64,000 nucleotides of DNA from Octopus vulgaris (lineage: Eukaryota): assembly GCA_951406725.2 (NCBI GenBank), contig OX597825.1:82956001-83020000 (forward strand), given 5' to 3'. The notes beneath the pieces were generated by a model, which was not told the origin of the DNA, did not search any database, and was given only the letters and a program-made list of their open reading frames with translations. Both the position numbers and the translations under genes were made by a program. Below are positions 23,429 through 52,190 of the stretch, piece by piece; position 1 is the first letter of the stretch; each line of letters opens with the position of its first letter.

Positions 23429-23511
<83 letters not shown>

Positions 23512-23602
23512 ATATTATTAGAGACAAAACCACTATTTTGCAAAACAAACAAGGAAAGACTTAATCAATACATAAAATTTTAATAAAAAGTCAAAAAAAC
23601 CG

Positions 23603-23645
23603 CCACTACAATTGTTTCTTGTCTTGATCAACAATCTTCAGGTGG
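23603..23645 (-). ncRNA. Minimal type-I hammerhead ribozyme (family H1, inverted copy)
   Basis: Reverse complement of 23684-23726 with one change in stem II (C to U, giving a G-U pair). Confidence 0.85.
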
Positions 23646-23683
23646 ACTTCCAATAAGTCAGTTTCAACTGACTTATTGGAAGT

Positions 23684-23726
23684 CCACCTGAAGATTGTCG
23701 ATCAAGACAAGAAACAATTGTAGTGG
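23684..23726 (+). ncRNA. Minimal type-I hammerhead ribozyme (family H1)
   Basis: CCAC-CTGAAGA-TTGTC(GATCAA)GACAA-GAAA-CAATTG-TA-GTGG: stem I CCAC/GTGG, intact core CUGANGA and GAAA, 5-bp stem II, palindromic stem III, GUA cleavage triplet. Confidence 0.88.
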
Positions 23727-23965
23727 CGGTTTTTTTGACTTTTTATTAAAATTTTATGTATTGATTAAGTCTTTCCTTGTTTGTTTTGCAAAATAGTGGT
23801 TTTGTCTCTAATAATATTATATAATATTTTACTATAAAATTGGATTTAATCCTAAATCTGATTTTTTCCCTGTAAATTTGGATTTATTCCCTAATATTTA
23901 TTATATATATATATATATATATGTGCCTGCGTGTGTGAGTGTGTGTGTGTGTATATATAAATATG

Positions 23966-24022
<57 letters not shown>

Positions 24023-24872
24023 GTATATATATATATGTGTGTGTGTATATCTATCTATCTATCTATTTTTCTATATATGTATATATGTATATATATATAT
24101 ATGCACATATGTATATGTGTGTATCTATGTGTATCAGTATAAAGTGAGGGAAAATGGCTAGAAGTGTGCTGGAATAACAAAAGAGGTTCCCTCCATCAAT
24201 TCAGGAAAGTAAGCAACAGCACAAAAACGATACCAAAAAGAACGACAAAAATATTCTTTGATATATTTGAAAAGGCCGATTTTCTTCAAATCAGATAAAT
24301 CGATGTAGCTAGAAGAGATTAAGAAAGCCAGTTCATAAATTTTAAAAAGTTGTGTATCATGAAAAGGTTAACTGATTTTACCGTTATTATATCTCATTAT
24401 CTAATCAATAAAACGCGAAGAGTCTGCAGAGCCATGTAACACGACGGCAAAGCGCGTGGCTTCAATTCGTCCGCTTCTATGGTTTGAGTTCGCATTCCAC
24501 CGAGGACATCTTTGCCTTTCATGCTTTCGGGGTCGATAAAATATGGTGCCATTTGAGCACGAGGCCCTTCTTCCCAAGGTGTCAGACCTTCTCTACTATT
24601 GAAAGAATGTTTAAAGAGAAAAAAAATAATAATCGGAAATCGGAAGTGTCTTCACAGTTTCTTTTTTTAAACCCGTTAAAAGAAATGATAACCGCCTAGA
24701 AGGTACGATTTTAACATTATTGATATGCTTTTATGAGATTTGTAGAACATTTAGTGTAAGCGCTCTGACGAAACGGATTTGCCGCGGGGTCAGTGTTTTG
24801 GGTAGACTGTCTCGTGTGTCATATTCTTATTTTTACATTTGACGGATATTTCTCCTCATCTTGTTTGTTGTT

Positions 24873-24918
24873 AACACAACGTTTCGGCTGATATACACTC
24901 CAGCCTTCATCAGGTGTC
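24873..24918 (-). ncRNA. Minimal type-I hammerhead ribozyme (family H2)
   Basis: Minus strand reads GACAC-CTGATGA-A-GGCTG(GAGTGTATAT)CAGCC-GAAA-CG-TT-GTGTT: core intact, palindromic A-CG-U stem III, GUU triplet. Confidence 0.85.
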
Positions 24919-25059
24919 TTGGGGAAATTTCGAACCTGGGCTACTAACCCCAAGATTCTGAATTCGATTCCAGGCAGTGACCTGAATAATAATAATGATA
25001 ATAAAAATAACATCGAAAAATACCTTAGGAATGAGTACCCAGGTTCGAAAATTCCTCAA

Positions 25060-25105
25060 GATACCTGATAAAGGCTGGAGGGTATATCAGCCGAAACGTT
25101 GTGTT
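25060..25105 (+). ncRNA. Hammerhead ribozyme motif (family H2), core-mutated
   Basis: GATAC-CTGATAA-A-GGCTG...CAGCC-GAAA-CG-TT-GTGTT. CUGAUGA has become CUGAUAA (G8 to A), so it is predicted to be inactive. Confidence 0.75.
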
Positions 25106-26147
25106 AACAACAAACAAGATGAGGACAAATATCCGTCATATGTAAATCCGTCATATGACAAATATCCGTCATATGTAAATAATGTAACTAATGTTCTTAT
25201 TCCCACTTTCAGAAATTCCGAGTACATGAAAAAGTATTGATCGAATGAGTAATCTGTTAGGTGATGCTCTTGCCGTTTCAGCCTTGCTTCGGTGCGATCT
25301 AGCAGTAATGATTACGACCATCAAAATCCGAGACGTTGAAGTCGGAAATGAAGGCATATACGTTGTAATACACTCTATTTTGTAAGCTCAGAAGTGGAAC
25401 GCCGTAGGTCTATACATCCTAATTCCATATCCATTTCTGCTCAAAACGCATTGGACAGATTAGGACGTTTGACAAACCACCTGCCCCAAAACACCATGCA
25501 CTCGGAATGAGCCTGACATCTCGTGTTTGCGAAGCAGACATTTCAACCAGATAGCCATGGCTATTTTTCAACATTTCCTATATATTTCAAACGTACCACG
25601 TATTAGAAATTATACACAAATGTATTAAATATAATAATATACTCTGTTGAAGTATAACTGAAGTAGTATATTCGAATAAGCAACATGTCTAGAAGGAAAG
25701 GAGATTTAATGGGATTTTATCGGAAATTGGTTGGTCATTAAAAACCTATATTTATGGTCCGCTGCGTCTGTCGCTATTTAGATTAACATTTAATAGTTCG
25801 AAATGAAGTCATCTCACTGCGATTCTAATTATTTCTGCTATGATTGTCATAAAAGTGCAGGAAAGAATAGGACCAACCAAGTAGCCTTTCACTTTACAAC
25901 ACTCTGAGATTTTTACGAAAATTGTGCATCATTCGAAAAATTCTAAACAGTTTACGTATTTCAACGGGTCTATCTATCTATCTATCTAGCTAGCTAGCTA
26001 GCTGACTCTCTATGTGACTCACTCTCTGTTTTCACATTGTCCAGATTGTCCACAAATCTCAACTGATTAAACTTTGTAATTAGAATCATTACACCTCAGC
26101 CACTTGGCCTTGCATTAGTAAAGCCGTTTGTACACATATTGGACTAT

Positions 26148-26505
26148 TACGTGTGGTAAGAAGTTTGCTTTCCAACCGCATGGTTCCGGGTTCAGTACCA
26201 CTGCGTGGCACCTTGGGCAAGTGTCTTCCGCTATAGCATCTGGAAGTTGATAAAGCCCGATTTATATGTGTATATTTATGTATGTGTGTCTTTGTGCTGT
26301 GTTTGCCTTTCCACCATCACTTGACAACCGATATCGGTGCGTTTACGTCTCGTAACTTGGCAGTTCGGCAAAAGAGACCGATAGAATAAGTACTAGGTTT
26401 ACAAAGAATAATTCGTAGGGTCTAGTTCTTCGACTAAAGCCCTCTAAGGTGGTGCACCAGCATGGTCGCAGTGAAAATGAGTGAAACAAATAAAAGAAAA
26501 AGAAA
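26148..26505 (+). mobile_element. SINE family B
   Basis: Head, CCTTGGGCAAGT and tail match the other B copies. Confidence 0.88.
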
Positions 26506-26519
26506 ATATTCGCATGAGA

Positions 26520-26930
26520 AATTCTTACTTGTCCTGGATGTTCAGAAGATTTGCAAATAAAGAAAATGTTGTTGTAATTTCAAAAGTCTGCGGACATCCG
26601 CCGCAAAATATTTGGAAGTATCTGCACCATTACCAGTAGTAGATTTTCATCAGCTTGTGCTTGGAATGATCTTCATCTTGAAAGCATTTCCAAAGATATG
26701 GCTAGGAAGGAACCTTGTTACTTTGGCGACCATCGATAAACGTAGCATGGAAATCGCATCTACACAGTTAAGTGTGTATATCAACAAGATTATTCCTTTG
26801 TGATCACAAACAGAATCTGCAAACTTACAAATAGAGGCCGAGCAATTGGAAGAATACATCACCAGAAGTTCTAATAGCATCACGAACCTTTCATTCATCG
26901 CTGCATCACCAAATATGCATGTCATCGATC
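26520..26930 (-). pseudogene. Possible highly decayed CR1/L2-type LINE ORF2 fragment
   Basis: Frameshifted minus-strand peptides KLMKSTTGNGAD / ILPNILRRMS..F..GQV resemble the pre-RT pattern KSxGPDGI..LLK..LFN..G. Weak. Confidence 0.35.
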
Positions 26931-28534
26931 ATGGAGATATGAAAGGGCAGAGTTAACCACAGCGGGATTTGAACTCAGAATGCAAATATTTGGGACTGAC
27001 AGCAGAAGTAACTTCTTCGGTCACTCTACTGAGCCATCATTTACACATCCCCATAAAAAAATGTTTTCTATTACTTCCTTTAATAATGATTTCCAACATC
27101 AATTATTTATGATAATAACATTACTATTTGCATTATAAGCCATTATGGGGTTATGTGCCATCACTGTGATATTATCAATCTCGACTTGGATTATAAGAAC
27201 CAAATACATCTGCATGATTATTAAACACATCAATAGCATAACCAGATTGTATCAAAAACTGACATGAAAGAGTTCACTTATAAACGATACACATTTGTCG
27301 GAACTTAGATCCAAGCAAAATAAATAGAACGTTACTTATCAGATTCCATTCCTTTTTATTTATTCATTTATATTTTCATTTTTTTAGCCATATTAACATC
27401 GGCATGTCATCCCAAAAGACTGGATTCTAGGTTTATAACTCATACTGCATCCATACAAATAAACACCTGTTAATTACATTCGCGTCATTGCTTTAGATTC
27501 CAGAGTAAAAACGTTACGTTTAATACCTGGGTATCATTCATCTTATATCGATCAGAATTGTTACCAATGTATTACATAGTCGCTGTGCAAATATGGATAA
27601 GAGATAGCAGGATCGATAAGGCATTAAAAATAATAAGTTAAGGGATACGTGTTAAAACCTATTGAACACGATTCGTGATGTTAGAGGACAGATGCATTAA
27701 TACAAATCTTATTTAAACTAAAGTAATAAAATCTCTAACAGTATCGGTACACACTCACATACACACATACATAGAAACAATGCAATAAATTATTGATTCG
27801 CCGTTGGAAACATATTGGAGTTCAAATTTCCAATGAAACTGGAAATACAGAGAATTGAAAAATTAAAATAGATTTTTGGTTCCGTAAAACATTTTTTTTT
27901 TTTTTGGTTTAATGTAACAGGTTTGTAATTCTGGACGTTTAGCTAATATTCACATTGCACTTAATATATCACTGGAAATCCAATAAAAAATTTGGTTACC
28001 GATATCGAATTCTTATATTCTTCGCTTATGACATTACATCATTCTTCTTCCTTTTGTCCTTATGGTATTTTCTGTTCTATATTCTGTATATGTAAAGGGC
28101 TCTCTTCGACTCTTTACATATATATTTGATAAAGTTTATAGTTTATATTAAGCATTACTACTATTGTCGAGTGGATTAAATGAAATAAAAACCGTGAAAC
28201 AACTCTGACGATATGGTAGCAGTCGGAAGGAAAAACTAAAATCGTTGTGAGGTTGAGGAGGAATGATACAACATCACTATACAGATGGCAGAAAAGAAAT
28301 GAACTTCTAAATCAGTAACTAAGTGTACGAATGGCTTGTTGCTCTATTGATTAATATAAGTTATTGGGTTCTGGGTTGATATGGAACATGGCCACATTGT
28401 AAACCAATTATTATGCAGAGGAGATCCTTCATCTAAAGGAAGTTAAGCATTGAGCACAAAAGAAGTGGCAAATGTCAACGGGGCCTTGCGTGGGGAGCAG
28501 TGGATGTTTACGAATATCAACCAATATTAATACA

Positions 28535-28982
28535 GCATGTCTGTGTGGTAAGAAGCTTGTTTCGCAACCACATGTTTCCGGTTTTGGTTTAGTCCCGCTG
28601 CGTGGCACCTTGGACAAGTGTGTTCTACTTCGGGAAACCAAAGTTTTGTGAATGGATTTAGTAGACGGAAACTGAAAGAAGCCCGTTGTATATATATATA
28701 TATGTATGTATGTATTTGTGTGTGTGCTTGTATCTGTTTGTTCTCCACCATCGACTGAAAACCGATGTTGGTGTGTTTACGTCCTCTAATCTTAGGTGTT
28801 CGGCAGAGGAGAGACCGATAGAGTAAGCACCAGGCTTACAAAGATTTGTCGTTTTTTTTCTTCTTTTTAACGTAACAGGTTAGTAATTCTGGACGTTTTG
28901 CTGGACGTTTTGTTCGACTAAAAGGCGATGATCCAGCATGGCCACAGTCAAATGACTGAAACAAGTAAAATAGTAAAAGAGT
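28535..28982 (+). mobile_element. SINE family B with a templated insertion
   Basis: B head and tail. The segment ~28850-28905 is replaced by sequence matching ~27893-27944. Confidence 0.85.
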
Positions 28983-30004
28983 ATTTAAACTAGGTATATT
29001 ATTTGTATTGCAACCAAGCTCTAGATAAAAAATTTGAGCGAAATATTTGGATCTCTTTATTAGTGAGTGGACATATGGCTGATTTTCCAACATTGAGTAA
29101 AAGTCACTTTCGTTTCATTAAAATAATCTTCTTTTATGTATTTATATTTTTCTGTTGCCATACATGCAGAGAACACGTTTGTAATATTCAGCGAGAGGAT
29201 GCGCTGAGCCAGCAAAGAGTGAGATCTAAAGCAGCAGAACATCACATATGGAACAGAAAATAGAAAACTGAATTAAATTCAGAAAGTTTCTGAGGAAGAA
29301 AAGTATATTTACAGCAATACATATTAAAATGATAACAGACTTACAAAAGAAATTTCTTAAGGCAAATGTATATCTCACCGTTAAGAGAGTAAGTATTAAT
29401 AATATTTTATGATATATAATCTCAATAATTTTTCGAGAAAGCAAACGGAGAAACAACAGAGATGGCAAATTTGTAGAATAAATCTTTCATAACAAACATA
29501 TTTTCAACAGTTAGTTCTATTTAATCTTATTCCACGTAGGTTTCTTTGCTTCATTAATAATTCTCTGTCCACTGTCTGCTCGTCTGTGCGTCGATCTGTC
29601 TCTTTCACTGTTTCATATTTACCTATGAACCTCTTTATTAATTCATATTAGATTAAATATATGCGTAGGTGCTTGTGTGTGTATTTAAACAATCATATCT
29701 ACACACGCACGCACACACGCAAGCACACCAACACACTCACATATGTCATTCTGTTCACTCACACATCTTGTGCAAGAAATGTGTGGATGGAAATTTCATA
29801 GAAGCTCATAGGTTATACCGAACCTGTAATTCAATATTGACAGCATTGTCACACACTGTGTGGAACTGATTCAGTCAGAGAATTACGTTAAAAGCACCAG
29901 TGTCTCTGAAAAGTTCTGCCAGTTATTCGTTAAATTGCCAGCGAATAATTTAGTTCATGAAACAATGGAATTATTATCATTAAACGACGAAGAAACGCCT
30001 ACAC

Positions 30005-30056
<52 letters not shown>

Positions 30057-30241
30057 GCGTGTGTGTGTGTGTGTGTGAAGTATATTTGCCACTTATATGT
30101 GGCTAACCACTAAGGCTGGATGCTACTGTAGCTTGTAACACCAGGAGAACATCTTCTCCAGCTGGCTCCTGACACACTTTCTGTGCCCTATCGGTATTCG
30201 TAAAGAGAAGCCGTCCTTCCCATCGTCGACCTGATGTGATA

Positions 30242-30286
30242 CGCACGGACCCGAGTTTCTGGGTATTTACCCGTCGTCAGCGCACG
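30242..30286 (-). ncRNA. Minimal type-I hammerhead ribozyme (family H3)
   Basis: Minus strand reads CGTGCG-CTGACGA-C-GGG(TAAATA)CCC-A-GAAA-CTCGGG-TC-CGTGCG: 6-bp stem I with two G-U pairs, intact core, GUC triplet. Confidence 0.8.
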
Positions 30287-31216
30287 ACAATCACCGGTCC
30301 CAATGCAAAAACATATATCTTTTTTCCAGTGACGAAATACATATATAGATATTTCTGTGTGTGTGTGTGTGTCTGCGTGTGAGTTAAGGCATGGCTAAAT
30401 GTAAAACTGGGCTTCTGCACAAACGCACTGGCCGACCAATGGTTTGAGTGAATTTACCAGATAGAAGCTGTGTTGAAGAGCGTGCGAATTTGCTCTTCAG
30501 AGACGCGTACGTTCCACGATCCGATGACGTAATTCATGGACCAATGTTATTCACACATGTTGTTTAAGCGGAGGAATTTTTTCTGAGATAACTTCCGCAG
30601 TGAATGTTCTTCACACGTTCGCGTACATCACATATCATACGTCCATGTATATTATATATCAATCTTCATATATATATATATGTATATATATAACACAGAC
30701 ACACAGCTGACCATATCCTGAATAGAAACTAGTTAGTCAATGCGACAGACTTCTTTTGAATAGAATTCCTTCGACTTGAACCCTTGAACCCCACCACAAA
30801 ACCCATAGACAAACCATATACAAGAAGTGACTCTAAAGTAAAATTTCACTATGCACTAAAATATGGGTACAAGCTGTTAAACCCCAATTTCTTTTTCTAT
30901 TTGACTGCCTAAAAAATTCAAAGACGGATACATCGAAACCGGTTATATTCTAAATCACTCACTGTAACCAAAATATTAAACATTCTCTATAATATACTTT
31001 TGTAACTTTTCCAAATTTATTTACTTTTCTAACAAAACTCTTTCATTTGTACAGACTATTAACCCCTTTTCAAATAAATGTGTATATTCAATTCAACGCT
31101 GCTTCAATTAAATCGAGGTTAACCAAGCTTTATGAACGTCGGCAAATTTACTATTTGCTGTCCTTATCTATCAGAACTGTCGTTTCGTCTCGACTGAGAA
31201 AGATGAATTCTGTGTT

Positions 31217-31260
31217 CATCACTGATGACGCGTAGCAACTCGAAATTCGACTATCTGATG
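31217..31260 (+). ncRNA. Hammerhead ribozyme-like motif (family H4), partly decayed
   Basis: CATCA-CTGATGA-CGCGTAGCAACTC-GAAA-TTCGACTA-TC-TGATG: perfect stem I and core; stems II and III imperfect. Confidence 0.6.
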
Positions 31261-31879
31261 GCGTCATCCATAGCTCTATTAGGTTTCACATATAATGTCG
31301 GTTAGAAGAAGTTTCCTAAAACACTTCTTCCGGAATGAAAGATTGTTTCATATGCGTATCTACATGGACGTGTTAAATATCATTGTACATGGATATAGTT
31401 TATTCAACACTGCTTCGTGCTACTCTAATATTATGTTAAATTACATCATATCATATTATATTGCAGTATTAAGCTATACATTACGTGCTGCTCGAGATGT
31501 ATATCCCTTTAAAAGTATCATATTACTAGAGTATAGTGATGAAATTGATTTCAAAAATAGTATCGCCATATTATGTGACGTATAAGATGTTTATTGATAT
31601 TAATTTACTGACAAAAAAAAATCAAAAAATAAAGGAAAGAAATATGAGAATTTATTTATCAAGCATGTGAATTTATTTATCGCATCATTGCGTGGAATAA
31701 ATAAATAAATATTTGCTGTTTATTTCCTTTTTATTAGCAATGATGAAGTACATAATAATGGTTTATAAAGTATCATAGTGTTACTAATGAACCGAGACAG
31801 CAACAGGACGATCTCTCTATGATGAAAAATTTGCACTTAGGAAAATAAATTTGGGGAGTAAAGAGCATATATGCATAAC

Positions 31880-32109
31880 ATAGTCGTGACTGCGGGGTAA
31901 GAAGCGTCCTTCCCAAGCACATGATTCCAGAATAAATCCCACCGTGAAGCACCTTGGGCCGATCAAAGCGTTGTGAAGATTTCGTTGTGGAAAAAACTGA
32001 AAGAAGCCAGTCCATTATATTTAGACGCAAGCGTGGCTGTGTGGTAAGTTGCTTGCTTCCCAAAGACATGGTACCGAGTTCATTCCCACGGCGTGGCACT
32101 TTGGGGCCG

Positions 32110-32160
<51 letters not shown>

Positions 32161-32330
32161 GGTATATGTGTGTGCGTCTTTGTGTCTATTTGTTCCCTCA
32201 CCACCGCTTCACAACCGATGTTGGTGTATTTACGTCTTCGTAACTTAGCGGTTCGGCAACAGACTAGTAGAATAAATACTAGGCTTAAAAGTTAAGTAGT
32301 TTGATTGATTTATTCGACTAACATTTTTCA
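31880..32330 (+). mobile_element. Two tandem diverged SINE family B pieces
   Basis: Two B-type heads (~31885 and ~32030) followed by one tail. Confidence 0.7.
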
Positions 32331-32822
32331 AGGCGTTACATAGAATAACTCTCTATAGAAAGATAGACTACAGTATAGGCTATATGATGTATAGATGGCT
32401 TATATTACAGTAATGGCTTTCCATAGCAAAGTCTCAATCGTGATAGTATAATCTTCGATTAACTGAGACTATCCCTACACTCAGAACTCAAACATTTCCC
32501 CTAAGAGTCATTGAAACCCTTTGAAAAGACAGCAAGTGCAATATTCCCGGTAATGCCGTTGTGTGTATGTAGGTGTGTGAGTGAGATTTAAGACGACGCA
32601 GACAGAATTGGAAACGCTGTACTCTCTCACCTGATCTAAAACAGGAGTTTTGGAGATTTATTTAGATACGACAATGTATTAGGTGAAAAAAATCTACTCT
32701 TTCCTCCGCTCGATCTCGCTAGAAGCAGTCAAATATTTATTCCTACTCTAAGGCAGAATGCACAAGTCACATATATGACGAGCGGAATTCTCTATTACCT
32801 CTGTAACTGTACACTCCTGTAA

Positions 32823-32885
<63 letters not shown>

Positions 32886-33030: not shown

Positions 33031-33112
<82 letters not shown>

Positions 33113-33144
33113 TTTATTTTAGGCAGCAGAAAATTCAACAAAAT

Positions 33145-33182
33145 CTGTTACTCTGAGTTTCTTGTTGCCGTTCATCAGACAG
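33145..33182 (-). ncRNA. Minimal type-I hammerhead ribozyme (family H5, inverted copy)
   Basis: Reverse complement of 33378-33415 with one stem II substitution. Confidence 0.72.
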
Positions 33183-33377
33183 TTTTTGCTAGCATTTAGA
33201 ATATTTTATGGAATCTTGATAATTGATGTTAAAGAAGTCTGTACCCGTATTCTATATCGTACAATAATATTGTATATACAGTAATATCAACAAAGAGGAT
33301 ATTGGTGTTCAAATGTCTGTCGACATGACAAGCAAATCGACATGACAAGCAAATCAACAGTTTTTTGCTAGCAAAAA

Positions 33378-33415
33378 CTGTCTGATGAACGGCAACGAGA
33401 AACTCAGAGTAACAG
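33378..33415 (+). ncRNA. Minimal type-I hammerhead ribozyme (family H5)
   Basis: CTGT-CTGATGA-A-CG(GCAA)CG-A-GAAA-CTC(A)GAG-TA-ACAG: stem I extends via AAAA/TTTT, short stem II capped by a GNRA loop, GUA triplet. Confidence 0.8.
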
Positions 33416-33517
33416 ATTTTGTTGAATTTTCTGCTGCTTAAAATAAAGCATATTACTCTACCACTGGTATTTGAGTACTCTTTTTTCCACCTTGTTTCAC
33501 GTTTATGTGTTTACTCC

Positions 33518-33558
<41 letters not shown>

Positions 33559-34589: not shown

Positions 34590-34673
<84 letters not shown>

Positions 34674-35501: not shown

Positions 35502-36940
35502 GCGCATGACAGACAGGCACGTATGCATACACATGTTTAATGCAACCATTTATTGAGACCCGAGAATGTCGTAAATCGCCATGGTTATCTTTTCAATTTA
35601 TACTTTCAGCATTCTCGACATTATCATCATTCTCATCACACCAAATGCATATATTTTGCCGATCTGATAGACATGCATTCATTAGCAATCCATGATGCAG
35701 TTTGTCTTGTTGAGCAAAAGAAAAGCATTCTCTGTTAGTCTCAGAGCTTCGCCTTCATATTTACAAACGTACATACATACATACATACATATATACATAC
35801 CCATATAAATATATATATATATATATATGTGTATGTATGTATGTATGTATGTATGTATGTATGTATATGTAAAAAATGCAAACTGGGACAAGAACGCAAA
35901 ACATTTAGAAGACGATACAAAAAGCCTTCAATCTTCAGTCAAGAACCGGAACATCATCGCAATTTCGGCTATATATATATATATTTATATGTATGTATGT
36001 ATGTATGTAAGTGTATATGCATGTATGTAATACACATATGTGTGTGTGTGTATATATGTGCGTATATATATATATATATACATATATATGCGTCTGTGTG
36101 TATGTGTCTGTGTGAGTAATTTTTAAGTGGACACGTTGACATTTTGCTAAGATAGTGCAGAAACGTGATATAGAGATACAGAAAGAATTGTCGTATAAAT
36201 GACAGAAAGAAAGAAAGAGAGGCAGAGAGAGGAAGAAACGGAGAGAGAATGAAAGAAAGTGAAAAGGGAGAAGTGGTAGAAATGTGTTGAATAACATTTA
36301 GAATATTTTATGGAATCTTGATAATTGATGTTAAAGAAGTCTGTACCCGTATTCTATATCGTACAATAATATTGTATATACAGTAATATCAACAAAGAGG
36401 ATATTGGTGTTCAAATGTCTGTCGACATGACAAGCAAATCAACATGTCTAATGTCTAACATATTCTTATATGGAACTGTCATAATATTATCGCATCAAAT
36501 AGCAGTGTTGTTGTTGTCTTTCCTTGCCATTTCTTTAATCTTTATTCATGTTTGCTTTATTCGTTTCAATAGATCTATGTTTAATGTATGAGAAGTAAAT
36601 ACAAATTTTGTCACGGACTGCCAGCCTATAATGATTTACCTGCAATTAACTTCGTTTTATCCTGAGATGATAAAACGTGAAAAAAAAAAGAAAAAAAAAC
36701 AAACATGACAAAACGTTTTAAAAACGTTCAGTTGCGTTGCACTTAAGAACTCTTCATTACGTTTAGCAACCACAAGACTTTGTAGAATAATCATGAAGTG
36801 GATTTATTTGTTATTGATGTTGGTAAACCTCAGATAAGCTCCAGATCAACCTACTTAACATCAAAAATTCACAGAATATCGTCTTATCGTAATTTTCCAG
36901 AGTCCTACATATTAAGGACTATATTGTCAAGTTTCAAGTC

Positions 36941-41110: not shown

Positions 41111-41158
<48 letters not shown>
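40773..41158. repeat. (TTA)n microsatellite with recurring ATC/ACT variant blocks
   Basis: Direct reading. Confidence 0.95.
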
Positions 41159-42183: not shown

Positions 42184-43034
42184 TATATTGCAATCATGGT
42201 TCTAAACATTATCGTTATATGAGATTCTCAAAGATTATAGGTGCAGGAATGGCGATGTGGTTAAGAACTGGTGCAGTCAAGGAAATTTAGTCTAGAAATT
42301 CGATTCACAATCACGTACTGCTGAAATATTCCTTAAAGGAATATATATATAAATTTTAACATATTCCTTTAACTTAACCTTCCTTTATTGATATCAATAA
42401 TTGCCATTTAATAAATAATTATAAATATATGTTAAGTTAGTATTTAAATATGTAAATATGGAATTACTTCTATATTTTCTGTCCCTCTATTGTGTAAAAG
42501 TTTTGCGATATACTGAAAGTATTCAGAAATATTCTTCTTGGTGTTCTTAAGATTGATTCTATAATGTATCTGGGTATAAACAAATAACATTGTTTTATAG
42601 TAGGTAAATGTTCTGCTATTATATGAAATCATTCTCCCTGTCCCATAAGCAGCGGTCTACAAAATTAGCAGCTAAAATCTTGTCAGGTATATTCTTACTG
42701 AACCAAATGACTTTGCTTAAAAGAAATCTTGATTTATGAATCTGCCACTTAAATTGTCTATCTATTTTGCCCTATCCATAAAAGGATATTACACTCTCTC
42801 GTCTCTTAGATTTGATAATCTAGTCTATAAATTAAAACTGACCCCAAACCCAATTAGTAAATCTAAATAACAAAAATAATCAGTGATAAGCAGTGTCTTT
42901 TTGAAAAAATCTCAGTTACAACCGTGATGTTGCTGGTAAAACATGATCTTTGTCTAACTCCTTATCCCCTTGGTGATTTTGGATAAAAAATTATACAAAT
43001 GAGTCCTTCGAATTTAATTAAATTCTATATTTTT

Positions 43035-43124
43035 ATGAAGCTGAAGATTGCTCTACATTTTAAATTAATGTAATGTTTGCATTGTTCAATTAAAATGGAG
43101 TCGCATGAAACGATCGTACTACAT
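43035..43124 (+). ncRNA. Hammerhead ribozyme with extended stem II (family H7)
   Basis: ATGAAG-CTGAAGA-[59 nt, with TGC/GCA and CATTTTAA/TTAAAATG pairings]-GAAA-CGATCG-TA-CTACAT: palindromic stem III, GUA triplet. Confidence 0.68.
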
Positions 43125-43204
43125 TACCTGTGGATATTCTTGTTGCTTAATTTGATTATATATATATATTTATATAAAGAGAAAGAGAGGGAGAGAGAGA
43201 GAGA

Positions 43205-43660
43205 GAGACGGGCTTCTCTCAGTTGCGGCCTGAGACATTTGCCCAAAGTGCCATGCCATGGGACTCATCTCGGACCATGTGGTTGGGAAGCATGCTACTT
43301 ACCACTCAGCCACGCCTGCGCCTTTATACGTATGTATGTATGTATATTCGTACGTATGTGTGTGTGTGTGCATGCGTGTGCGTGTATGCGCTGTTGAGTG
43401 TATATCTTTGTGTTTGTCCACACATAGCTCGTCAGCAACTGAACCGGTGTACCTTTTCTTATGTCCCTTTAACTCAGTTGTGCTACAAACGACAACGATG
43501 GGACAAGCACCAGGCGAGACATAAGAACTGGAGTCGAATTCTTCGACTAGACTCTGAGTGAAAGTACCCCAAAATGAAAGTGAAAGTACCCTAGAGTGAG
43601 AGTACCCCAGCATGGCTGCTGTCCAATGATTTGAACAAACAGAAAAATAAAAGATTCGGA
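43205..43660. mobile_element. Family B head (-) and diverged B tail (+)
   Basis: TTGCCCAAAGTGCC..GGACCATGTGGTTGG..TACTTACCAC, then CCAGCATGGCTGC.GTCCAATGA. Confidence 0.65.
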
Positions 43661-44664
43661 ATAAATAAAAATTGTTCGAACGCTCAGTCAGAGAATAGAA
43701 GCTAGGCATCAATTTGGAAACGTCTAGTTGTGAATAATATTAGACACCGATATTGATACGTCTATCCATGTCCAATGCTAGAGCATCAATACTGGTACCT
43801 GTATGTGGATAGTATTTTAAACATTTTTCCTCTTCGAATGAATCTTTTCGCTAAGCAAGTCTCAAGTACTGGGATGAATTATGTATTTTGAACATCAACC
43901 AATATTTATATGATACATAGCAATAAGGCTGGTCATTCAAAATGCTACAAACACACTACTTTATACTGGAGAAAATATACTACAAAAGATCTTAAAGCTG
44001 TCAGGCTCAATATATTATATTCTTCAGAGATATCATCAAATTATTTGCTGCAAAAAACAGCGCCTACAATGATCCGTTAATCAAGACGAATGATAACAGA
44101 CAAGTATATGCACGACACACATCTATTTCTTATTTTCCTTTTTCTCTCAAATATATCAGATAAACGTTATTGACATTCGATTAGCGATCACACCGGACGA
44201 ATTTTCTAATACATTTCTAAAGTACATGCAGCTATTATGAAGAAAATCTCACCAACTTTCGTTGCAAAGAACGATGTGTTAAAAAGGAAGAAAAGGAAAG
44301 AAATGGAGAGAATTCTTAAGATGCGTCTTCAAAGAAAAGGACGTTATTAATTATTTTCCTTAGAATTCAATAGAAAAAAAAAACCAAAACTGTCTCCAGT
44401 TTGGACGGCTTCCTCTAATGTTGTTATAGAATTATGGCCGAAATGTATCACGAGGGATTGATCTGTTGCATAATAAGTATATGTGTGAAGGTTTAAGAAT
44501 AAATGCATAGGATATCATGTGGCAAGTGCACAATAAAATATGGGATATGTCTACATATGCATATATGTGTGTGTGCGTGCATGTGTGTGTATGAACGTAT
44601 GTATAAATAAGTGTGTGAATGTGTTTGTATGCTTATATATATATATATATATATATGTATGTAC

Positions 44665-44739
<75 letters not shown>

Positions 44740-44845
44740 AATATATTATGCAAATAATTATATATTTATACATAATGCATTACTTCTATATGTATACACA
44801 AATGTATTATACAAATATATTATATGTATATTAGCAAATTATGTA

Positions 44846-44892
<47 letters not shown>

Positions 44893-45759
44893 GTTATATA
44901 TGTGAGCGGTTATGTCTATGCGTGTATGCCTATGTGGTTGTGTGTTTGCGCGCTCGCTTGTGTCTAAATATACAAAGCATGATCATGTTATAAAAGCATC
45001 GAAGGAAAAACATTGAAATCTCTCTCGACAAAGCAGAAATACTGGGACAGTAAACGGTTAATAATAACGACGATGTTTGCCGACATTAGAATAAGGAACG
45101 GTGACGCTTGAAGATACTCAATTTGTTTTGAATATCTGCATCAGACAAACATTGTTAAAAGCAATATCTCATATCGGATGCTGTAGACTACGAATGCCAT
45201 GCATATATTCTCTCCATTCTCTGCTTATAATATTTTCACATGCAGTTAGTACTATCTGATGTAGTATTAATGATTATGAAAATGTTCAGTCACAAATAAT
45301 TCCTTTCCATCTTCACAAGGTCCCAGATTTGGAGCAGAAGTTTGCATTGGAAGATCAAGTCCCTTCTACTTCTTTTATCCACTTCAAAATTGCAATGAAC
45401 GGCAAGGTTTATCAATTGGAATATTAGTTAAATACGATGGATGAAACTAAGGAATACAAGACGTTTTGTCTCATGTTTGGACATTTTGGGTTGCATATGT
45501 GTCTGTGCGTTTAAAGTGCCTTATCTTGCCTTGGACCTTCCATGACTGATGAAGTCGTTTTTAGGTGAGTCAATTTATGAACGACGGTGAGTATGTGACT
45601 AATAAATACTCTGCGGGTCCCGTCTCTCCTCATATCGAACGAACCATACTTAATTCCTCTATCGAGGGAGAAAATATGTAAGAAAAGTCGAACCAAGAAA
45701 CATCTTAATTTTTGGCGATAATCAACGTGAAACGGTGTATTGCAAGGCAGGGACAAATA

Positions 45760-46175
45760 CGAGGGTGAGTCAAAAAGTAATACCATTTTGTTTAGGACAG
45801 GTAGAATTACCAATACAGGAACATCAATCATACATCAAAATGAAGCTGGTCCTCTGTGGATCACATCCCTACTTCTCAACATAGTCATTGTTTCTCTCAA
45901 TAGCAATGTTCCACTTTCGAATGAGAGCATGTATTCCTGCCCCGTAAAATTCTATTGACTGTTCTTTGAGCCATTTCTTCACTAGAGTTTTCACTTCCTC
46001 GTCACTGGAATAATGTTTGCCTCTCAAACCCTCTTTCAGTGATGCCTTCTCGAAGCAAATACCGCAAAATTACTCCTGTCTCAAGGCATACCCACGTTAA
46101 CGGAGATAAAGAGGTTGCTATTCGTAACTAATAGTATTTTCATTACTAATAATGGATTTTTACTCAGCCCATCAG
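45760..46175 (-). mobile_element. Mariner-family deletion derivative (C-terminal transposase fragment)
   Basis: End TA-CGAGGGTGAGTCAAAAAGT. Minus-strand peptide KEGLRGKHYSSDEEVKTLVKKWLKEQSIEFY / AGIHALIRKWNIAIERNNDYVEK*. The other TIR is degenerate. Confidence 0.82.
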
Positions 46176-46505
46176 CTATAATACTGGTTATTTTTTAATC
46201 AATACTTTCTATATCAAGAGAAACGACATTTACCTCATAATGCAGTTGATACCAGTTCTACAACCAGCCTATACTGAAACTTCTGAGCTCTACAACACTA
46301 TACGTCTATAAGTGGTGCTTTCTCAATACCAAGACCTCATTATTACGGCTTTCTCGCTGTATATCTACGTTGAGTATGGTATACAGATTTATAATCTATA
46401 TATCTACCTATCTATCTATATTTCTGCCTGTCTGTCTATCTGATTGTTTGTTTCTATGCATATATATACACACACATATGCAGGTAAATATACATGCACA
46501 CACAC

Positions 46506-46571
<66 letters not shown>

Positions 46572-46645
46572 TCAGATGAATATGGTGCTTAAGCTGAGGC
46601 ACAAGAGTTTTGTACGGTATTATCCATATAAAGTAAGAGGATTAA

Positions 46646-46718
46646 AATCAAAATAAGCAACAAGAATATCCAGAGGTAATGCAGTACGATCGTTTCATGC
46701 AACTTCATTTAATTGAAC
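46646..46718 (-). repeat. Second H7 copy, 3' half of the hammerhead only
   Basis: Reverse complement matches ~43084-43158 (TTCAATTAAA..GCATGAAACGATCGTACT.CATTACCT.TGGATATTCTTGTTGCTTA). No CUGANGA upstream. Confidence 0.75.
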
Positions 46719-47008
46719 CATGAATTCATGCGACCAACTGGCGCGAAGGTTTTCGAGCATGCGCATACAGAGTGCAGTCACCTCCCACGAAAAGGATTTC
46801 CCCATATGACATTAGTTTTAGCGGGGAAACACAAAGTCGTATACTCGTTTAACGACCCACTATATATATATCTGTGTGTGTGTAAGTGTGTGTGACAATA
46901 TGTATTTGATTGTGAGTGTATATGTATACGTATGTATGTATATGTCTATATGTATTTGTATATATGTTTATATGCATGTATATATATATGTATATACATA
47001 TTTATATG

Positions 47009-47052
<44 letters not shown>

Positions 47053-47227
47053 GTACATGCATATATATATGTATGTATATGTCTATATGTATTTGTATAT
47101 ATATTTATATGGATGTATGTATATATATATCTATATATATATATATTATGTATATACACATATATGTACGTATGTAGATAGATAGATACATAGATACATA
47201 GTTAAATAGATAGATAGAGATAGATAG

Positions 47228-47260
<33 letters not shown>

Positions 47261-47908
47261 TGTATTTATGTATGTTTGTGCATGTAATTTCAGAAGGAAA
47301 GAGAGAGAGAAAGAGAGGGAGAGAGAGAGAAATGAGGCAGAGAGAAAGAGCGATTCCATTGCGTAATTTTTAACACAAATAACCAAATAAAATAAATTAG
47401 TTATGTAACGACTCTGTTTTTCTTTTTGCAACACAACCTATAGTTTAATAATAGTATGCATTACTATGCATGCACCATCATAATTGGTTATGAAATACAG
47501 TAGTTTTGTATTCGCATCACTAATGTTCCTTTGAAAAGCACGAAATCACGCGATCTTATTTCCTTTTTCCATGTAAATATTAAATGTTGCGCATATGTAA
47601 ATCAATACCATAGCTAAAAATCGAAATCTGATGTTATGGAAAATTATAGACAAAACGCTGCTAGATTCGAACTCTGCAAATTTTAAGTAATATTGCTTTT
47701 AAGACCCATCCTTCAATTAATTTTTTCCTCTCTCCAACCACGACATTCTAACTTAGGGGTTTTCCGTTTGTGCGGTTTCAATATTTTATATTTTCTCATA
47801 GCTTATTTTTGATTAATTCCTCATTAAATGTAAAAGCGATCTGCATTGACAGGACATCCGAATATTGCATTTTTGGTTTAGGAACTCATCCCCTAACGAT
47901 ATAAGTGA

Positions 47909-48200
47909 AGGCGCATGGCTCAGTGGTTACAGCATCGGGCTCATAGTCGTTCAGGTAGTGAGATCGATTCCCGGACCGGGCTGTATGCTGTATTCTTCAG
48001 CAGGACTCTTTTTTTTTTCCCGTTGCTCCTTTTCACTCAGCTATACAGATGAGCTGCGCCGTTACTGATGCCAAGCTGTATCACCCTTTGCCCATCCCTT
48101 GGACAACATCGCTAGTATGGAGAGGAAATACTGGTGTGCATGGGCGACTGCTAGTCTTCACAACAAATTGCTAGTCTTGTGCCTCGAAGAGGAATATTAT
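47909..48200 (+). mobile_element. tRNA-headed SINE related to family C, diverged
   Basis: GGCGCATGGCTCAGTGGTT..GAGATCGATTCCCGG head with a different 3' body. Confidence 0.65.
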
Positions 48201-48514
48201 AGGCCAAACGCCTCCATTGTGAGTTAAAGTAGTGAGACAGAAAACTTGGGAATGTCCATCGGATTTTATTGTTAAATTTTCGTCTCTTTGACTCTCCCTG
48301 AGGATTCCAATAAGTGTATTTTACCCATGCTGTACTGAGCCACTTACGAATTCCCAATTGATCAAACAACTGCATACTCATCGTCGAAACAGACGGAAGA
48401 GCATTTACTTGATCAGTTTTTTATGTACTTTGCATACATATATGACATAGTTTCAAGTTACGAGTCGATTCTATTGGTGATGTCCGGAGTTCAGACAGAT
48501 CGCAAAATATCATT

Positions 48515-48916
48515 TTTTTAATCTAGGCTCAAGGCTCAAAATTTTGGGGGCATGGGGGCCAGTCGATTAGATCGATCCTAATACGCAACTGGTGCTTAAT
48601 TTATCGACCACGAAAAGATGAAAGGCAAAGTCGACCTCGGCGGAATTTAAACTCAGAACGTAGCAGCTGACGAAATACCGATTTCTTTATTACCCACCCA
48701 CAAAGGGCTAAACACAGAGGAAACAAACAAGGATAGACAGACCGATTAAGTCGATTATATCGACCCCAGTGCGAAACTAGTACTTAATTTATCGACTCCG
48801 AAAGGATGAAAGGCAAAGTCGACCTCGGCGGAATTTGAACTCAGAACGTAAAGACAGACGAAATACTTCTAAGTATTTCGCCCGGCGCGCTAACGTTTCT
48901 TACAGCTCGCCGCCTT
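48515..48916 (-). mobile_element. SINE family A dimer (tail 1 unit plus headless tail 2 unit)
   Basis: 20-bp TSD ACAGATCGCAAAATA(T/G)CATT (48495-48514 and 48917-48936). Internal junction at ~48680. Confidence 0.93.
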
Positions 48917-49714
48917 ACAGATCGCAAAATAGCATTAGCAAAAGAACTAAATAAATACTATATTTACAGTATATTTTCAAAAACCAGGACAGTATTTCGG
49001 ATAATTATAATTTTATTAACAGCAACACATTGCAGATTTTTAAAATTTTATTTTGCTTTTCTAATTTTTAATTCAAGTACTTGATAAATAAAGATATGTT
49101 TTCGACTTGCCACCGAAATCTAATATAATGTTGACGTGACAGAATCTTAATAAATACAATAATGTGACACTAACGCTTTTGAAAAGAGCTTTCGAGGCTG
49201 TAAACAGTATTGAAAGGAACTGGTGTCATTCGAGAAGTAAATCGAATCAGTGGAATTCTGTCGACAGGTTCTCAACGGAACTTGCGATATAGAATCGCTG
49301 TTGTCATTTGTTATGCTTTGATTGCAACTTGTAATTGTTGCAGTTACTGGATGCTGACTAAAGTAAATATTGATACAGACAGACACCAAATAAACTGATT
49401 GTATGCAGAATTAATTACTAGAGCAACAGCTAAATGCTGTTACTGTCACGGTGGCTATAGGTAATTACACCAGCAGCAGCAGTAGCCGCAGCAGCAGCAG
49501 CGAATACGTTGAATCACATATCAGCAAAATAATGATTGCAATAGTAATACACACAGAAACACTCACGCACACACATACACACAAATACACACACACATAG
49601 TCACATATATACATATATATACTCGTATGTCTGTGGATGTACGTATGTATATGCATGTGTGTGTATATATGTATGAAAGTGTATGTGTGTCTGCGTGTGT
49701 ACGCGTGTGTTTAT

Positions 49715-49786
<72 letters not shown>

Positions 49787-49949
49787 CATGAGTTAGACAG
49801 GCAGGTAGAAAGATAGATTCATACATATGTATATCTATATACATACATATGTACATACATGCATACATACACACACATACACACACATATATATCATTAG
49901 TTAGATAGGCAGGTAGATAGATAGATTCATACTTAAGTATATATATACA

Positions 49950-50093
49950 TACATAAAACAAAACATACAGATCTGTCGCATATACATACAAAAATACCCT
50001 GTTGTTGATTGAAATTCCAATAAAGGCGCCTTGAATCTAGGTTAGAAACCGGCTCTTTCTCTATTGGCAAGAAATCTTGAAATAAACTGAACA

Positions 50094-50095
<2 letters not shown>
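49950..50095 (-). repeat. Unclassified interspersed repeat (family E)
   Basis: Reverse complement of ~22050-22200. Confidence 0.8.
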
Positions 50096-50124
<29 letters not shown>

Positions 50125-50134
50125 CATACATACA

Positions 50135-50165
<31 letters not shown>

Positions 50166-51102
50166 GTACATATGGACACCAACGTCTGTGCAAATGCGAG
50201 TGTGTTTTGTGTATATTTTAACGAAATAATACGATTTCGATTTTCATTGCAGCTGCTCACATGCGTCTTTAGTTAATTACGAAACCAAAGCATCTACTAC
50301 TGTACCTATAGTTATTTAATAACAGCAACAAAAAAAAAGAAAAGAAAACATTGATTCAACCAATGAACAACAAGAACGCATTGATTGCGATGCTAACAAA
50401 AATCTAAGTCTGTTTTCGCTTGTAGAACTCTTCTATAGATCAAAGTTTCTTGGCTGCAACAACCAAACTTTCTTGTAAAATTTCGCGAAGTAATTCCAAT
50501 ATTCCACACATTCTCTTGCTTTCTGACTATTAACTTTTACAAATCACACAAATCGCTTAAATTTTGAAGATGGAACAAATTAAAACCAAACAAAAACCAA
50601 AACCAAAAACAAGACTTGGAAAAAAAAAATCGAAAAACGAAAATGGAGTCGGCATTCGTCGTCTGGTTCCTCCATTATGCATTCAAAAGTGATTTAGTCA
50701 AACAATAAAGTTACTATCGATTATAAGGTTTGGCTAGACGGCGTTTCTTTGATAAAATCGTTTGGTAATGTCGTAGTGTACTCTTTAACCTCAACCGAAG
50801 TAACAATATATCGATTAGTTCGCTAATTAAAGCAGAAAATTCCCGTAAGATGTCCATAGTACCAATGATGATGAAAATTACAGTAATCTTACCTTTATTT
50901 TTTTTTTTTAATTAATAATGCAAAAGAAAGAAGCAGATGACACAACATTATGAATAATTCATGATAATGTATACAACACATAATAAATTAAAAGCCGACA
51001 CTTTTAGTGTGCTCTATCGGCAAGAATGTTAATTAGTTCTGTTAAGTTTGTATGCTATATGAAGAATAAGGAATCCGATGGTTCGCAACTGAGTCTTCTC
51101 TA

Positions 51103-51198
51103 ATACAGTTCTATATTTAAGAGATGCGGTATTATGTATATTACTTACATTATTTACATTTGATGGATATTTGTGCTCATCTTGTTTGTTGTTAACAT
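51103..51198 (-). repeat. Inverted 3' portion of H2 repeat
   Basis: Reverse complement reads GTTAACAACAAACAAGATGAGCACAAATATCCATCAAATGTAAATAATG, the same sequence found downstream of other H2 hammerheads. Confidence 0.8.
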
Positions 51199-51214
51199 AA
51201 GGAACTTTCCCCAA

Positions 51215-51662
51215 GACACCTGATGAAGGCTGGAGGGTATATATTTCTTTACTATCCCCAAGGGGCTAAACACAGAGGGGAGAAACTAGGATTAAGTCGA
51301 TTACATCGACCCCAGTGCGTAACTGGTACTTAATTTATCGACCCCGAAATGATGAAAGGTAAAGTCGACGTCGGTGGAATTTGAACTCAGAACGTAACGG
51401 CAGACGAAATACCTGTTTCTTTACTACCCAAAAGGGACTAAACACAGAGGGGACAAACAAAGACAGAAAAAGGGATTAAGTCGATTACAGCGAACCCAGT
51501 GCGTAACTGGTACTTAATTTATCGACCCCGAACGGATGAAAGGCAAAGTCGACCTCGGCGAAATTTGAACTCAGAACATAACAGCAGACGAAATACGGCT
51601 ACGCATTTCGTCCGGCGTGCTAACGTTTCTGCCAGCTTGCATATCAGCCGAAACGTTGTGTC
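51215..51662 (+). ncRNA. H2 hammerhead split by a SINE insertion in loop II
   Basis: 5' half GACAC-CTGATGA-A-GGCTG-GAGGGTATAT at 51215-51242 and 3' half ATAT-CAGCC-GAAA-CG-TT-GTGTC at 51641-51662. Confidence 0.8.
51243..51640 (-). mobile_element. SINE family A dimer inserted in an H2 hammerhead
   Basis: Two tandem units with a junction at ~51412. ATAT is duplicated at the ends. Confidence 0.92.
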
Positions 51663-51724
51663 AGCAAGAAACAAGACGAGGACAAATATCCATCAAATAT
51701 GTAAATAATGTAAATAATGTAAAT

Positions 51725-52190
51725 AAAGAGCCTTCCCTGTTTCGTTGGATGTCAAAATTTTGTTTTGCGTTATGAAGAATAGTCATTTCCCGAAATGTTA
51801 GGTTCTTCCTCTCCATCTTGCATACGAACAACCCGAATGAAACATGTATCATCTCCTACATGTAGCAGATTTGCACATGGAACAATATGTGTTTGTAGAA
51901 GTTGTGCGCTAGAAGTTTGGGGCAATATGGTGCAGTGAGTTAGCGTATGTTTCTTCTACGGTGAATGCATTTAAAATTCTCCGGTTCTTTGTGGTTGGTT
52001 GATATGGAGCTTTTAAAAGGGAGGTTGCCGAGGTTCGTGTTGTATGAAAGATCGGCGTGGTTGTGGCAACCGGAAAAAGAATTAAGTAGTTACGGAATAG
52101 TGTGTGTTTCAATAGGAAGCGGATGCGTGGACGTTCAAGAATATGGAATTCAAAGTGTGTAGGTGTGCTCAAAGTAGTCTGAACAATATT
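51725..52190 (-). pseudogene. Decayed Penelope-like element fragment (linker plus GIY-YIG endonuclease)
   Basis: Frameshifted minus-strand peptides NLGNLPFKSSISTNHKEPENFKCIHRR, then CSMCK.. followed by a YIGE-like segment, then RNREGSL. These resemble the PLE pattern NLRDxLVRS..PGxFxC..C, CxxC..YIGET, R..RE. Confidence 0.5.

What the first reader, a model, noticed from the sequence alone, without database searches (positions are those of the whole stretch)
23507..51725. Four hammerhead loci share the same divergent fold-back architecture
Seen: at 23.5-23.9 kb (H1), 24.8-25.2 kb (H2), 33.1-33.5 kb (H5) and 51.1-51.7 kb (H2), a minus-strand copy lies left of a plus-strand copy. The 5' ends point inward, the 3' ends point outward and the arm lengths are unequal. 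Three unrelated families do the same thing, while SINEs A, B and C insert singly with TSDs. Established: PLE insertions often carry an inverted truncated pLTR. Inference: both ends of a break are primed on element RNA, or the cDNA folds back. Read-through transcripts would form long dsRNA that is a potential ADAR or siRNA substrate and would mask the ribozyme fold.
Basis: partly seen in the sequence, partly recalled or inferred. Interest (0 to 1): 0.75.

Follow-up and report, generated by a model that had tools for sequence, protein, structure and literature searches.

The report
Penelope retroelement double-primed mirror insertions
These four back-to-back repeats are real but already-described insertion stubs of three Penelope-type jumping genes, and their many copies in this genome indicate that both halves were most likely copied from one spliced RNA onto both cut strands of the target DNA, a testable clue to how this poorly understood class integrates.

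Summary
Observation confirmed: four head-to-head pairs, and 58 of 62 close neighbours among 300 listed genome copies are head-to-head. H1 and H5 are end repeats (pLTR plus tail) of Neptune-like, H2 of a Poseidon-like Penelope-like element with RT-GIY-YIG ORFs. The layout (inverted truncated pLTR, one-sided tail, opposite-strand hammerheads) is in print. What the copies add is mechanism. Nearly every pair has exactly one tailed arm (H5 40/40, H1 55/58). Short H1 copies, including 23.5 kb, are spliced leader RNA; long ones keep the intron; mixed pairs 0/22; a rare splice isoform (7%) sits in both arms in 13/14 pairs. So both arms likely come from one sense RNA. Tail-only arms and loop-less centres argue against simple fold-back; splicing argues against the published antisense self-priming idea. 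H1 5' ends also pile just after the hammerhead cut site, hinting at in-vivo cleavage. dsRNA, ADAR and siRNA ideas are untested by-products; raw-read confirmation was inconclusive. The scan noted similar double-primed and spliced stubs in other genomes, and H2's tRNA-like head in this one.

The parts
23501..23667 (-). H1 left arm: spliced leader (exon 1 remnant joined to exon 2), type I hammerhead (core at 23641), ends at the inner RT start (no tail), runs into (TA)n
23666..23900 (+). H1 right arm: exon 1|exon 2 junction at 23674|23675, hammerhead core at 23688 (predicted cut 23722|23723), 73-nt tail 23828-23900; 2-nt overlap with the left arm at the centre
24832..24940 (-). H2 left arm (Poseidon-like pLTR, hammerhead core at 24913), no tail
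24938..25147 (+). H2 right arm: part of the tRNA-like head with B box, (AAT)n, hammerhead core at 25065; local tandem repeat of its 3' end to about 25186; candidate 11-nt TSD at 24821-24831 and 25191-25201 (1 mismatch)
33106..33192 (-). H5 left arm (Neptune-like pLTR from the presumed transcript start), short end, in (TA)n
33193..33357 (+). Secondary templated insert in the centre of the H5 pair: copy of window 36295-36442 plus a 17-nt local repeat, flanked by a 13-14-nt duplication of the palindrome centre (33180-33192 and 33358-33371)
33368..33519 (+). H5 right arm: hammerhead variant (predicted cut 33411|33412), tail 33449-33519, then (TA)n
51105..51197 (-). H2 left arm: begins 1 nt 3' of the hammerhead cut site, carries the tail
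51202..51718 (+). H2 right arm (51202-51242 and 51641-51718), short end; 4 extra bases at the centre (51198-51201)
51244..51640 (-). Later insertion of a tandem SINE dimer into the ribozyme of the right arm

Best explanation
Each locus is a single insertion of the end repeat (pLTR) of an endonuclease-bearing Penelope-like element, and its two arms were likely made at once when a dimeric RT-GIY-YIG protein nicked both target strands and copied one sense RNA from two fixed internal start sites, after which the two cDNA ends were likely joined head to head. Shown: family identity, orientation, one tail per pair, one TSD around the pair (H2), splice junctions in the short H1 arms and their agreement between arms. 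Inferred: (1) the template of the short copies is the transcript that starts inside the pLTR (initiator-like start in H1 and H5, tRNA-like internal promoter in H2), spliced in H1; (2) one RT starts at the inner site, the other at the outer site (the tail lies between), the outer one usually displacing the first cDNA and sometimes stopping behind it (tail-only arms); (3) both run to the RNA 5' end, which is the transcript start or, in about a fifth of H1 insertions, probably the hammerhead cut; (4) the cDNA 3' ends lose 0-25 nt and are joined by short microhomology or filler; (5) long copies come from unspliced read-through RNA, which is why they keep the intron. The stubs are dead by-products with no shown function.
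For: Parents: H1 and H5 arms continue into RT + GIY-YIG ORFs with a Cys linker (838 aa in H1), H2 into a Poseidon-type ORF end; the same head-to-head form scales from 0.1 to 15 kb. One event: TSD of 11 nt or more in 24 of 39 H2 pairs against 2.3% of shuffled flank pairs. One tail: 40 of 40 H5, 55 of 58 H1, 30 of 38 H2 pairs, matching the two RT start sites and two-strand cleavage of Poseidon_Ac in vitro (PMC11167929). Sense, spliced template: short H1 copies join a GT donor to an AG acceptor 1.1-1.8 kb away in long copies; 514 exact matches to the major and 41 to a +4 alternative junction genome-wide. One RNA: 12 spliced/spliced, 10 intron/intron, 0 mixed pairs (p about 3e-7 if independent); partners of alternative-isoform arms are alternative in 13 of 14 informative loci, across several SNP haplotypes. 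Not fold-back: tailed arm 5'-shorter in 17 of 40 H5 and 14 of 50 H1 pairs; four H5 arms are tail only, starting 9-14 nt behind the inner start; loop-less centres on self-complementary 4-mers in 4 H1 and 4 H5 pairs. Hammerhead: longest H1 arm starts at or before q14 in 50, q15-57 in 0, q58-83 in 15, later in 3 of 68 loci (cut after q57), while partners of full-length arms start 5/3/7 in those bins (p 0.0017); one ORF-long arm starts at the cut (L307/L318).
Against: All of it is inferred from genome copies. One locus (L242) pairs the major with the alternative isoform, and 4 of 29 alternative-isoform loci were not inspected. Three H1 and eight H2 pairs break the one-tail rule by script (several H2 cases are split tails on reading). 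A quarter to 40% of loci are single arms (13 of 52 H5, 27 of 67 H2), and 11 of 14 long H1 arms had no partner within about 5-9 kb. Deletion or conversion inside palindromes after insertion could mimic part of the arm agreement and asymmetry. H5 shows no pile-up at its hammerhead cut and H2 only a weak one (5 arms at +1 to +4); a stably folded, uncut ribozyme could also stop both RTs, and PMC11167929 found cleavage dispensable in vitro. An untemplated cap G is clear in only 2 of 17 arms that stop at the presumed start. Samples are mostly from contig 1 and biased to young copies; L031 and L032 look like one duplicated insertion.
Confidence: 0.7

Rival explanations
1. One cDNA is primed, folds back near its 3' end and copies itself; later asymmetric deletions scramble arm lengths.
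For: Explains arm-to-arm agreement in splice state and SNPs; some junctions have a small stem with a 5-nt loop (L028); the tailed arm is the 5'-longer one in 24 of 50 H1 pairs.
Against: The copy cannot hold sequence that the template arm lacks, yet the tailed arm is 5'-shorter in 17 of 40 H5 and 14 of 50 H1 pairs, and tail-only arms cluster just behind the inner start; loop-less centres cannot self-prime; it needs an exact stop at the inner site every time.
Confidence: 0.12
2. The palindrome, or the agreement between its arms, arises after insertion through repair or gene conversion of a single copy.
For: Centres are fragile: the H5 pair at 33.1 kb took a templated insert from 3 kb away; some arms show microhomology deletions (L008, L036).
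Against: One TSD brackets the whole pair; SINEs of the same size in the same window are never head-to-head; conversion would not set exactly one tail per pair nor add or remove a 1.8-kb intron in both arms.
Confidence: 0.07
3. Both target strands are primed, but on two separate RNA molecules.
For: One discordant locus, L242.
Against: 0 of 22 mixed splice states; 13 of 14 agreement for a 7% isoform; strict one-tail rule.
Confidence: 0.05
4. Self-priming on an antisense transcript, as proposed for Adineta PLEs (PMC3846280), makes the head-to-head form and explains intron retention.
For: Long copies keep the intron: 11 of 18 ORF-start loci have the unspliced upstream repeat and none the spliced one.
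Against: Short H1 pairs are spliced at sense GT-AG signals in both arms, with two donor choices, which an antisense RNA would not undergo; 5' ends stop at a sense initiator-like site.
Confidence: 0.03
5. The palindromes are assembly or library artefacts.
For: No listed contig from four independent runs spanned a centre.
Against: Family-specific, with TSDs, a one-sided tail, age-graded arm mismatches (1% to 13%) and later insertions in arms and centres; the same form is published in other animals.
Confidence: 0.02

Closest known systems
Complex insertions of EN+ Penelope-like elements (Craig et al. 2021, PMC8557442, Fig. 2; passages read)
   Same: Inverted 5'-truncated copy next to the element, tail at one end only, (TA)n targets, hammerhead in the pLTR, 5'-UTR intron in the pLTR.
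   Different: Tails here are 73 nt (H1), about 65-70 nt (H5) and about 26-30 nt (H2) against 30-40; that text leaves the mechanism open and, in the passages read, reports no spliced copies.
Adineta vaga Pen2a/Pen3a (Arkhipova et al. 2013, PMC3846280; passages read)
   Same: Head-to-head most frequent, palindromes at the junction, TSD round the unit, initiator-like site in the pLTR, Asn-rich insert in the ORF.
   Different: It proposes antisense self-priming; the spliced H1 pairs point to a sense template.
Poseidon_Ac in vitro (Frangieh et al. 2024, PMC11167929; parts 1-2 of 4 read)
   Same: Both strands nicked and extended, two internal RT start sites bounding the tail, predicted dimer.
   Different: No strand preference of start site seen in vitro, and no sign of hammerhead cleavage in reads; here the genome shows one start per strand in each event and an H1 class of 5' ends just after the cut.
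Minimal hammerheads of metazoan PLEs (Cervera and de la Pena 2014, PMC4209133; part 1 of 4 and passages read)
   Same: Type I minimal ribozymes with palindromic stem III; dual motifs 100-700 bp apart on opposite strands already reported in Schistosoma.
   Different: No analysis of how the pairs form in the part read.
L1 twin priming (recalled, no call)
   Same: Second target strand primes on the same RNA; cDNA ends joined by microhomology.
   Different: In L1 the second priming is at variable internal sites and gives an inversion with little duplication; here both starts are fixed and the outer RT usually recopies the same stretch. The tail-only pairs are the L1-like case.

Membership tests
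EN+ Penelope-like elements | Single ORF with RT and C-terminal GIY-YIG endonuclease linked to the repeat | tested here: met
   H1 838-aa open frame, H5 507-aa partial frame, H2 broken RT-thumb and GIY-YIG pieces next to the repeat, called from motifs by eye; Pfam gave no RT or GIY-YIG hit
EN+ Penelope-like elements | pLTR from partial tandem, with minimal type I hammerhead | tested here: met
   H1 repeat both upstream of the ATG and downstream of the ORF; hammerhead cores; H5 stem II is reduced
EN+ Penelope-like elements | Inverted 5'-truncated copy and one-sided tail | tested here: met
EN+ Penelope-like elements | RT groups with PLE RTs in a tree with reference elements | not tested
   No reference PLE proteins were fetched
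Neptune clade (H1, H5) | Cys-rich linker finger before GIY-YIG; (TA)n targets | tested here: met
   Cys linker in both ORFs (in H5 one Cys is Phe); (TA)n flanks; clade name rests on the description in PMC8557442, not on a tree
Penelope/Poseidon clade (H2) | No linker finger; AT-rich targets with TSD | tested here: met
   ORF pieces in L319, L323, L326; TSDs; no intact full ORF was recovered
Non-LTR retrozymes | Head-to-tail tandem units, each with a hammerhead, no ORF | tested here: not met
   Pairs are head-to-head and are ends of ORF-bearing elements; definition from 10.64898/2026.07.22.740005, part 1 of 5 read
Stand-alone tRNA-derived SINE (H2) | Head independent of the partner element | tested here: not met
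   The tRNA-like head directly follows the ORF end in long copies; ARAGORN calls no tRNA in 8 loci
Active ribozyme | Self-cleavage of the RNA | not testable with these tools
   Only the indirect H1 5'-end pattern
ADAR or siRNA substrate | Transcribed and edited or diced | not testable with these tools
   No raw RNA reads were available

The most novel reading that the evidence does not exclude
PLE integration is obligate twin priming: one RNP copies one sense RNA from two fixed sites onto both target strands. The spliced mRNA yields only short leader stubs, full-length copies come from unspliced read-through RNA (explaining intron retention without an antisense template), and hammerhead self-cleavage in vivo sets the 5' end of a class of templates. 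These young families record all three steps with internal controls such as a rare splice isoform.
Probability: 0.45. Interest if true: 0.72.

Novelty: new member of a known kind. Interest (0 to 1): 0.47.

Why it matters
How PLEs build their inverted ends and tails, why they keep introns, and what their hammerhead does are stated open questions (PMC8557442, PMC11167929). The architecture is not new, but these copies give counted, discriminating evidence (one RNA, sense, spliced, two starts) and young intact ORFs for an in vitro test. Thousands of short palindromes could also feed RNA editing in this animal, but nothing here shows that.

Tried and rejected
Rfam on the whole window returned microsatellite noise in the rows shown, and no hammerhead on two short stretches. 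Pfam gave no RT or GIY-YIG match. My first descriptor found only H1. Sequencing runs: no RNA holder listed, no evidence either way. Contigs of four runs on 24140-25900: two runs join the left flank to the minus arm without differences but by only 22 and 30 nt, and no listed piece spanned the centre; inconclusive. The splice junction could not be checked in RNA runs. The genome-wide count at q91-108 (4530) exceeds the downstream 29-mer (1970) and is shared with sister subfamilies, so it was dropped; the two counts 5' of the cut are flat (1270, 1278). Cap-G test: 11 of 17 arms have G before the start but most can come from the partner arm. SNP sharing between arms was not used as a test, as one active source would give it too. 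H2 as an independent SINE was rejected. Other inverted repeats in the window (1385-2745, 62918-63373) are two opposed SINE-like repeats and a CAT/GAT microsatellite. Searches that found no paper on twin priming or spliced copies in PLEs; none on a tRNA-headed pLTR. Subscription papers (for example Arkhipova 2006, Schostak 2008) are outside the library, and no supplements were read.
Full report
Setting. The window is G000:C12:82956001-83020000 of a 2.8-Gb animal genome; an octopus-like cephalopod is my guess from size and repeat make-up, not a tool result. It is microsatellite- and SINE-rich, and no host gene was seen among long open frames. Coordinates q count from window 23666 (H1); c counts from the predicted hammerhead cut (H2, H5).

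Observation. The four pairs are as described, with arm mismatches from under 1% (H1) to 13% (51.1 kb). Type I minimal hammerheads lie on both arms at 23.5 and 24.8 kb. At 51.1 kb the left arm begins just after the cut site and a SINE dimer splits the right-arm ribozyme. At 33.1 kb the 165-nt spacer is a copy of window 36295-36442, set between a 13-14-nt duplication of the palindrome centre, so it is a later templated insert in a once loop-less pair. Exact 3' motifs occur 1970 (H1), 3920 (H2) and 9384 (H5) times, control 0. Among the first 100 listed rows of each, neighbours within 2 kb are head-to-head in 58 of 62 cases and tail-to-tail once. In 67 H2 loci 38 are head-to-head, 1 convergent, 1 mixed, 27 single; 39 of 52 H5 loci are paired.

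Identity. Long pairs show the parents. H1 and H5 continue into RT plus GIY-YIG frames with a Cys linker; H1 has intact 838-841-aa frames and is 38% identical to H5 over 261 RT residues. H2 follows a Poseidon-type ORF end, and its repeat opens with a tRNA-like head with A and B boxes. Pfam did not recognise these proteins, so the call rests on motifs and on the clade descriptions in PMC8557442. The head-to-head form holds from 0.1 to 15 kb. H1 and H5 sit in (TA)n; 24 of 39 H2 pairs have a TSD of 11 nt or more against 2.3% in shuffled flanks, so a pair is one event.

What is known. Inverted truncated copies and a one-sided tail are the standard PLE layout (PMC8557442); head-to-head is called the most frequent form, with antisense self-priming proposed (PMC3846280); opposite-strand hammerhead pairs 100-700 bp apart are reported in Schistosoma (PMC4209133); the anole Poseidon protein cuts and extends both strands and starts at two internal sites that bound the tail (PMC11167929). 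A repeat annotation of Octopus vulgaris lists Penelope families but has no mention of hammerheads (PMC13282606, passages). The finding as worded is therefore known biology.

Mechanism 1: one tail per pair. One arm ends at the inner site and the other at the outer site in 40 of 40 H5, 55 of 58 H1 (28 of the 98 H1 loci were BLAST-top hits) and 30 of 38 H2 pairs by script. Independent choice of site would give half with both or none.

Mechanism 2: a sense, spliced template. Short H1 copies, the 23.5-kb pair included, carry a 23-nt leader that in long copies is followed by a GT donor, 1.1-1.8 kb of intron and a pyrimidine tract ending in AG before exon 2. The major junction occurs 514 times (control 8) and a junction using a donor 4 nt downstream 41 times (control 0). 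Spliced copies share SNP variants with several long subfamilies, so they arose repeatedly. Their 5' ends stop at an initiator-like A; 30 of 99 H5 arms likewise start at c-46 to c-41. Of 18 loci at the ORF start, 11 have the unspliced repeat upstream and none the spliced one.

Mechanism 3: one RNA for both arms. In 69 H1 loci sampled by position, informative pairs are 12 spliced/spliced and 10 intron/intron, none mixed (L059 set aside because its row spans a third arm; two pairs uninformative). For the rare isoform (7.4%), 22 of 29 loci were inspected and 3 more show the exact junction on both arms in the listing: 13 partners agree, 1 (L242) does not, the rest are truncated, degraded or absent; 4 loci were not seen.

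Mechanism 4: not simple fold-back. A folded-back copy cannot exceed its template arm, yet the tailed arm is 5'-shorter in 17 of 40 H5 and 14 of 50 H1 pairs; four H5 arms hold only the tail and start at c52-57, just behind the inner start at c43, as expected if the outer RT ran into the first. Eight pairs have loop-less centres on self-complementary 4-mers, which fits annealing of two cDNA ends. Later deletion in palindromes keeps fold-back alive at about 0.12.

Mechanism 5: the ribozyme. The longest H1 arm starts at or before q14 in 50, at q15-57 in 0, at q58-83 in 15 and later in 3 of 68 loci; the cut is after q57. Partners of full-length arms show no such gap (5, 3, 7; p 0.0017), so the step belongs to the template, not to a per-arm stall. 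Genome-wide counts are flat across q16-55 (1270, 1278) and higher at q123-151 (1970). One ORF-long arm starts at q57. Against: H5 shows no such pile, H2 a weak one, and a folded uncut ribozyme could block both enzymes.

A read-through RNA of 23500-23905 folds into one long hairpin that buries the ribozyme, but nothing shows transcription, editing or small RNAs. Contigs of four independent runs neither confirmed nor denied the centres.

Earlier scan notes, looked up after the analyses above were largely done, report double-primed and spliced stubs in other genomes and the tRNA-headed repeat in this one; they are unchecked AI notes and are not counted as support. Two of them found 5' ends at the transcript start rather than at the cut, which matches H5 and the larger H1 class here.

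Verdict. Real, known architecture; three new family members; useful mechanistic record. I found no paper stating one-RNA twin priming or spliced leader copies for PLEs in the searches named, with subscription papers and supplements unseen. Interest 0.47.

Noticed in passing
L107, L108, L096, L319, L321, L323; window 24941-25010: The H2 (Poseidon-like) pLTR begins with a tRNA-like head with A and B boxes and has no run of four T to the tail end; short copies start at this head, so it may be read by RNA polymerase III.
   Followed up: partly
L061-L068 (contig 1): The H1 3' region holds 1.74-kb tandem units, each with its own exon 1 and splice donor; one subfamily has the donor changed to GA.
   Followed up: partly
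L312:4906-7419: The H1 ORF has an Asn-rich stretch of about 110 aa between RT and endonuclease, like the inserts described in Adineta Penelopes.
   Followed up: no
window 33193-33357 and 36295-36442: Templated insertion of nearby genomic DNA into the centre of a palindrome; L007 and L010 have similar foreign spacers of 174 and 236 nt.
   Followed up: partly
window 30280(-), 31222(+), 35287(-), 56707(-): Four further hammerhead-like motifs with no inverted partner nearby; the last is a single H2 copy.
   Followed up: partly
window 19807-20221, 48561-48914, 51244-51640: The same SINE occurs three times as a direct tandem dimer.
   Followed up: no
window 23828-23900: The H1 tail between the two RT start sites is predicted to form a stem-loop.
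   Followed up: no
L181-L194: Most unpaired long H1 arms end at the inner site without a tail (10 of 11).
   Followed up: no
L319:1500-4300: A broken LINE-like element with a restriction-like endonuclease end lies between the arms of an H2 pair.
   Followed up: no
L242: The one pair whose arms differ in splice isoform and leader sequence: two RNAs or two events.
   Followed up: no
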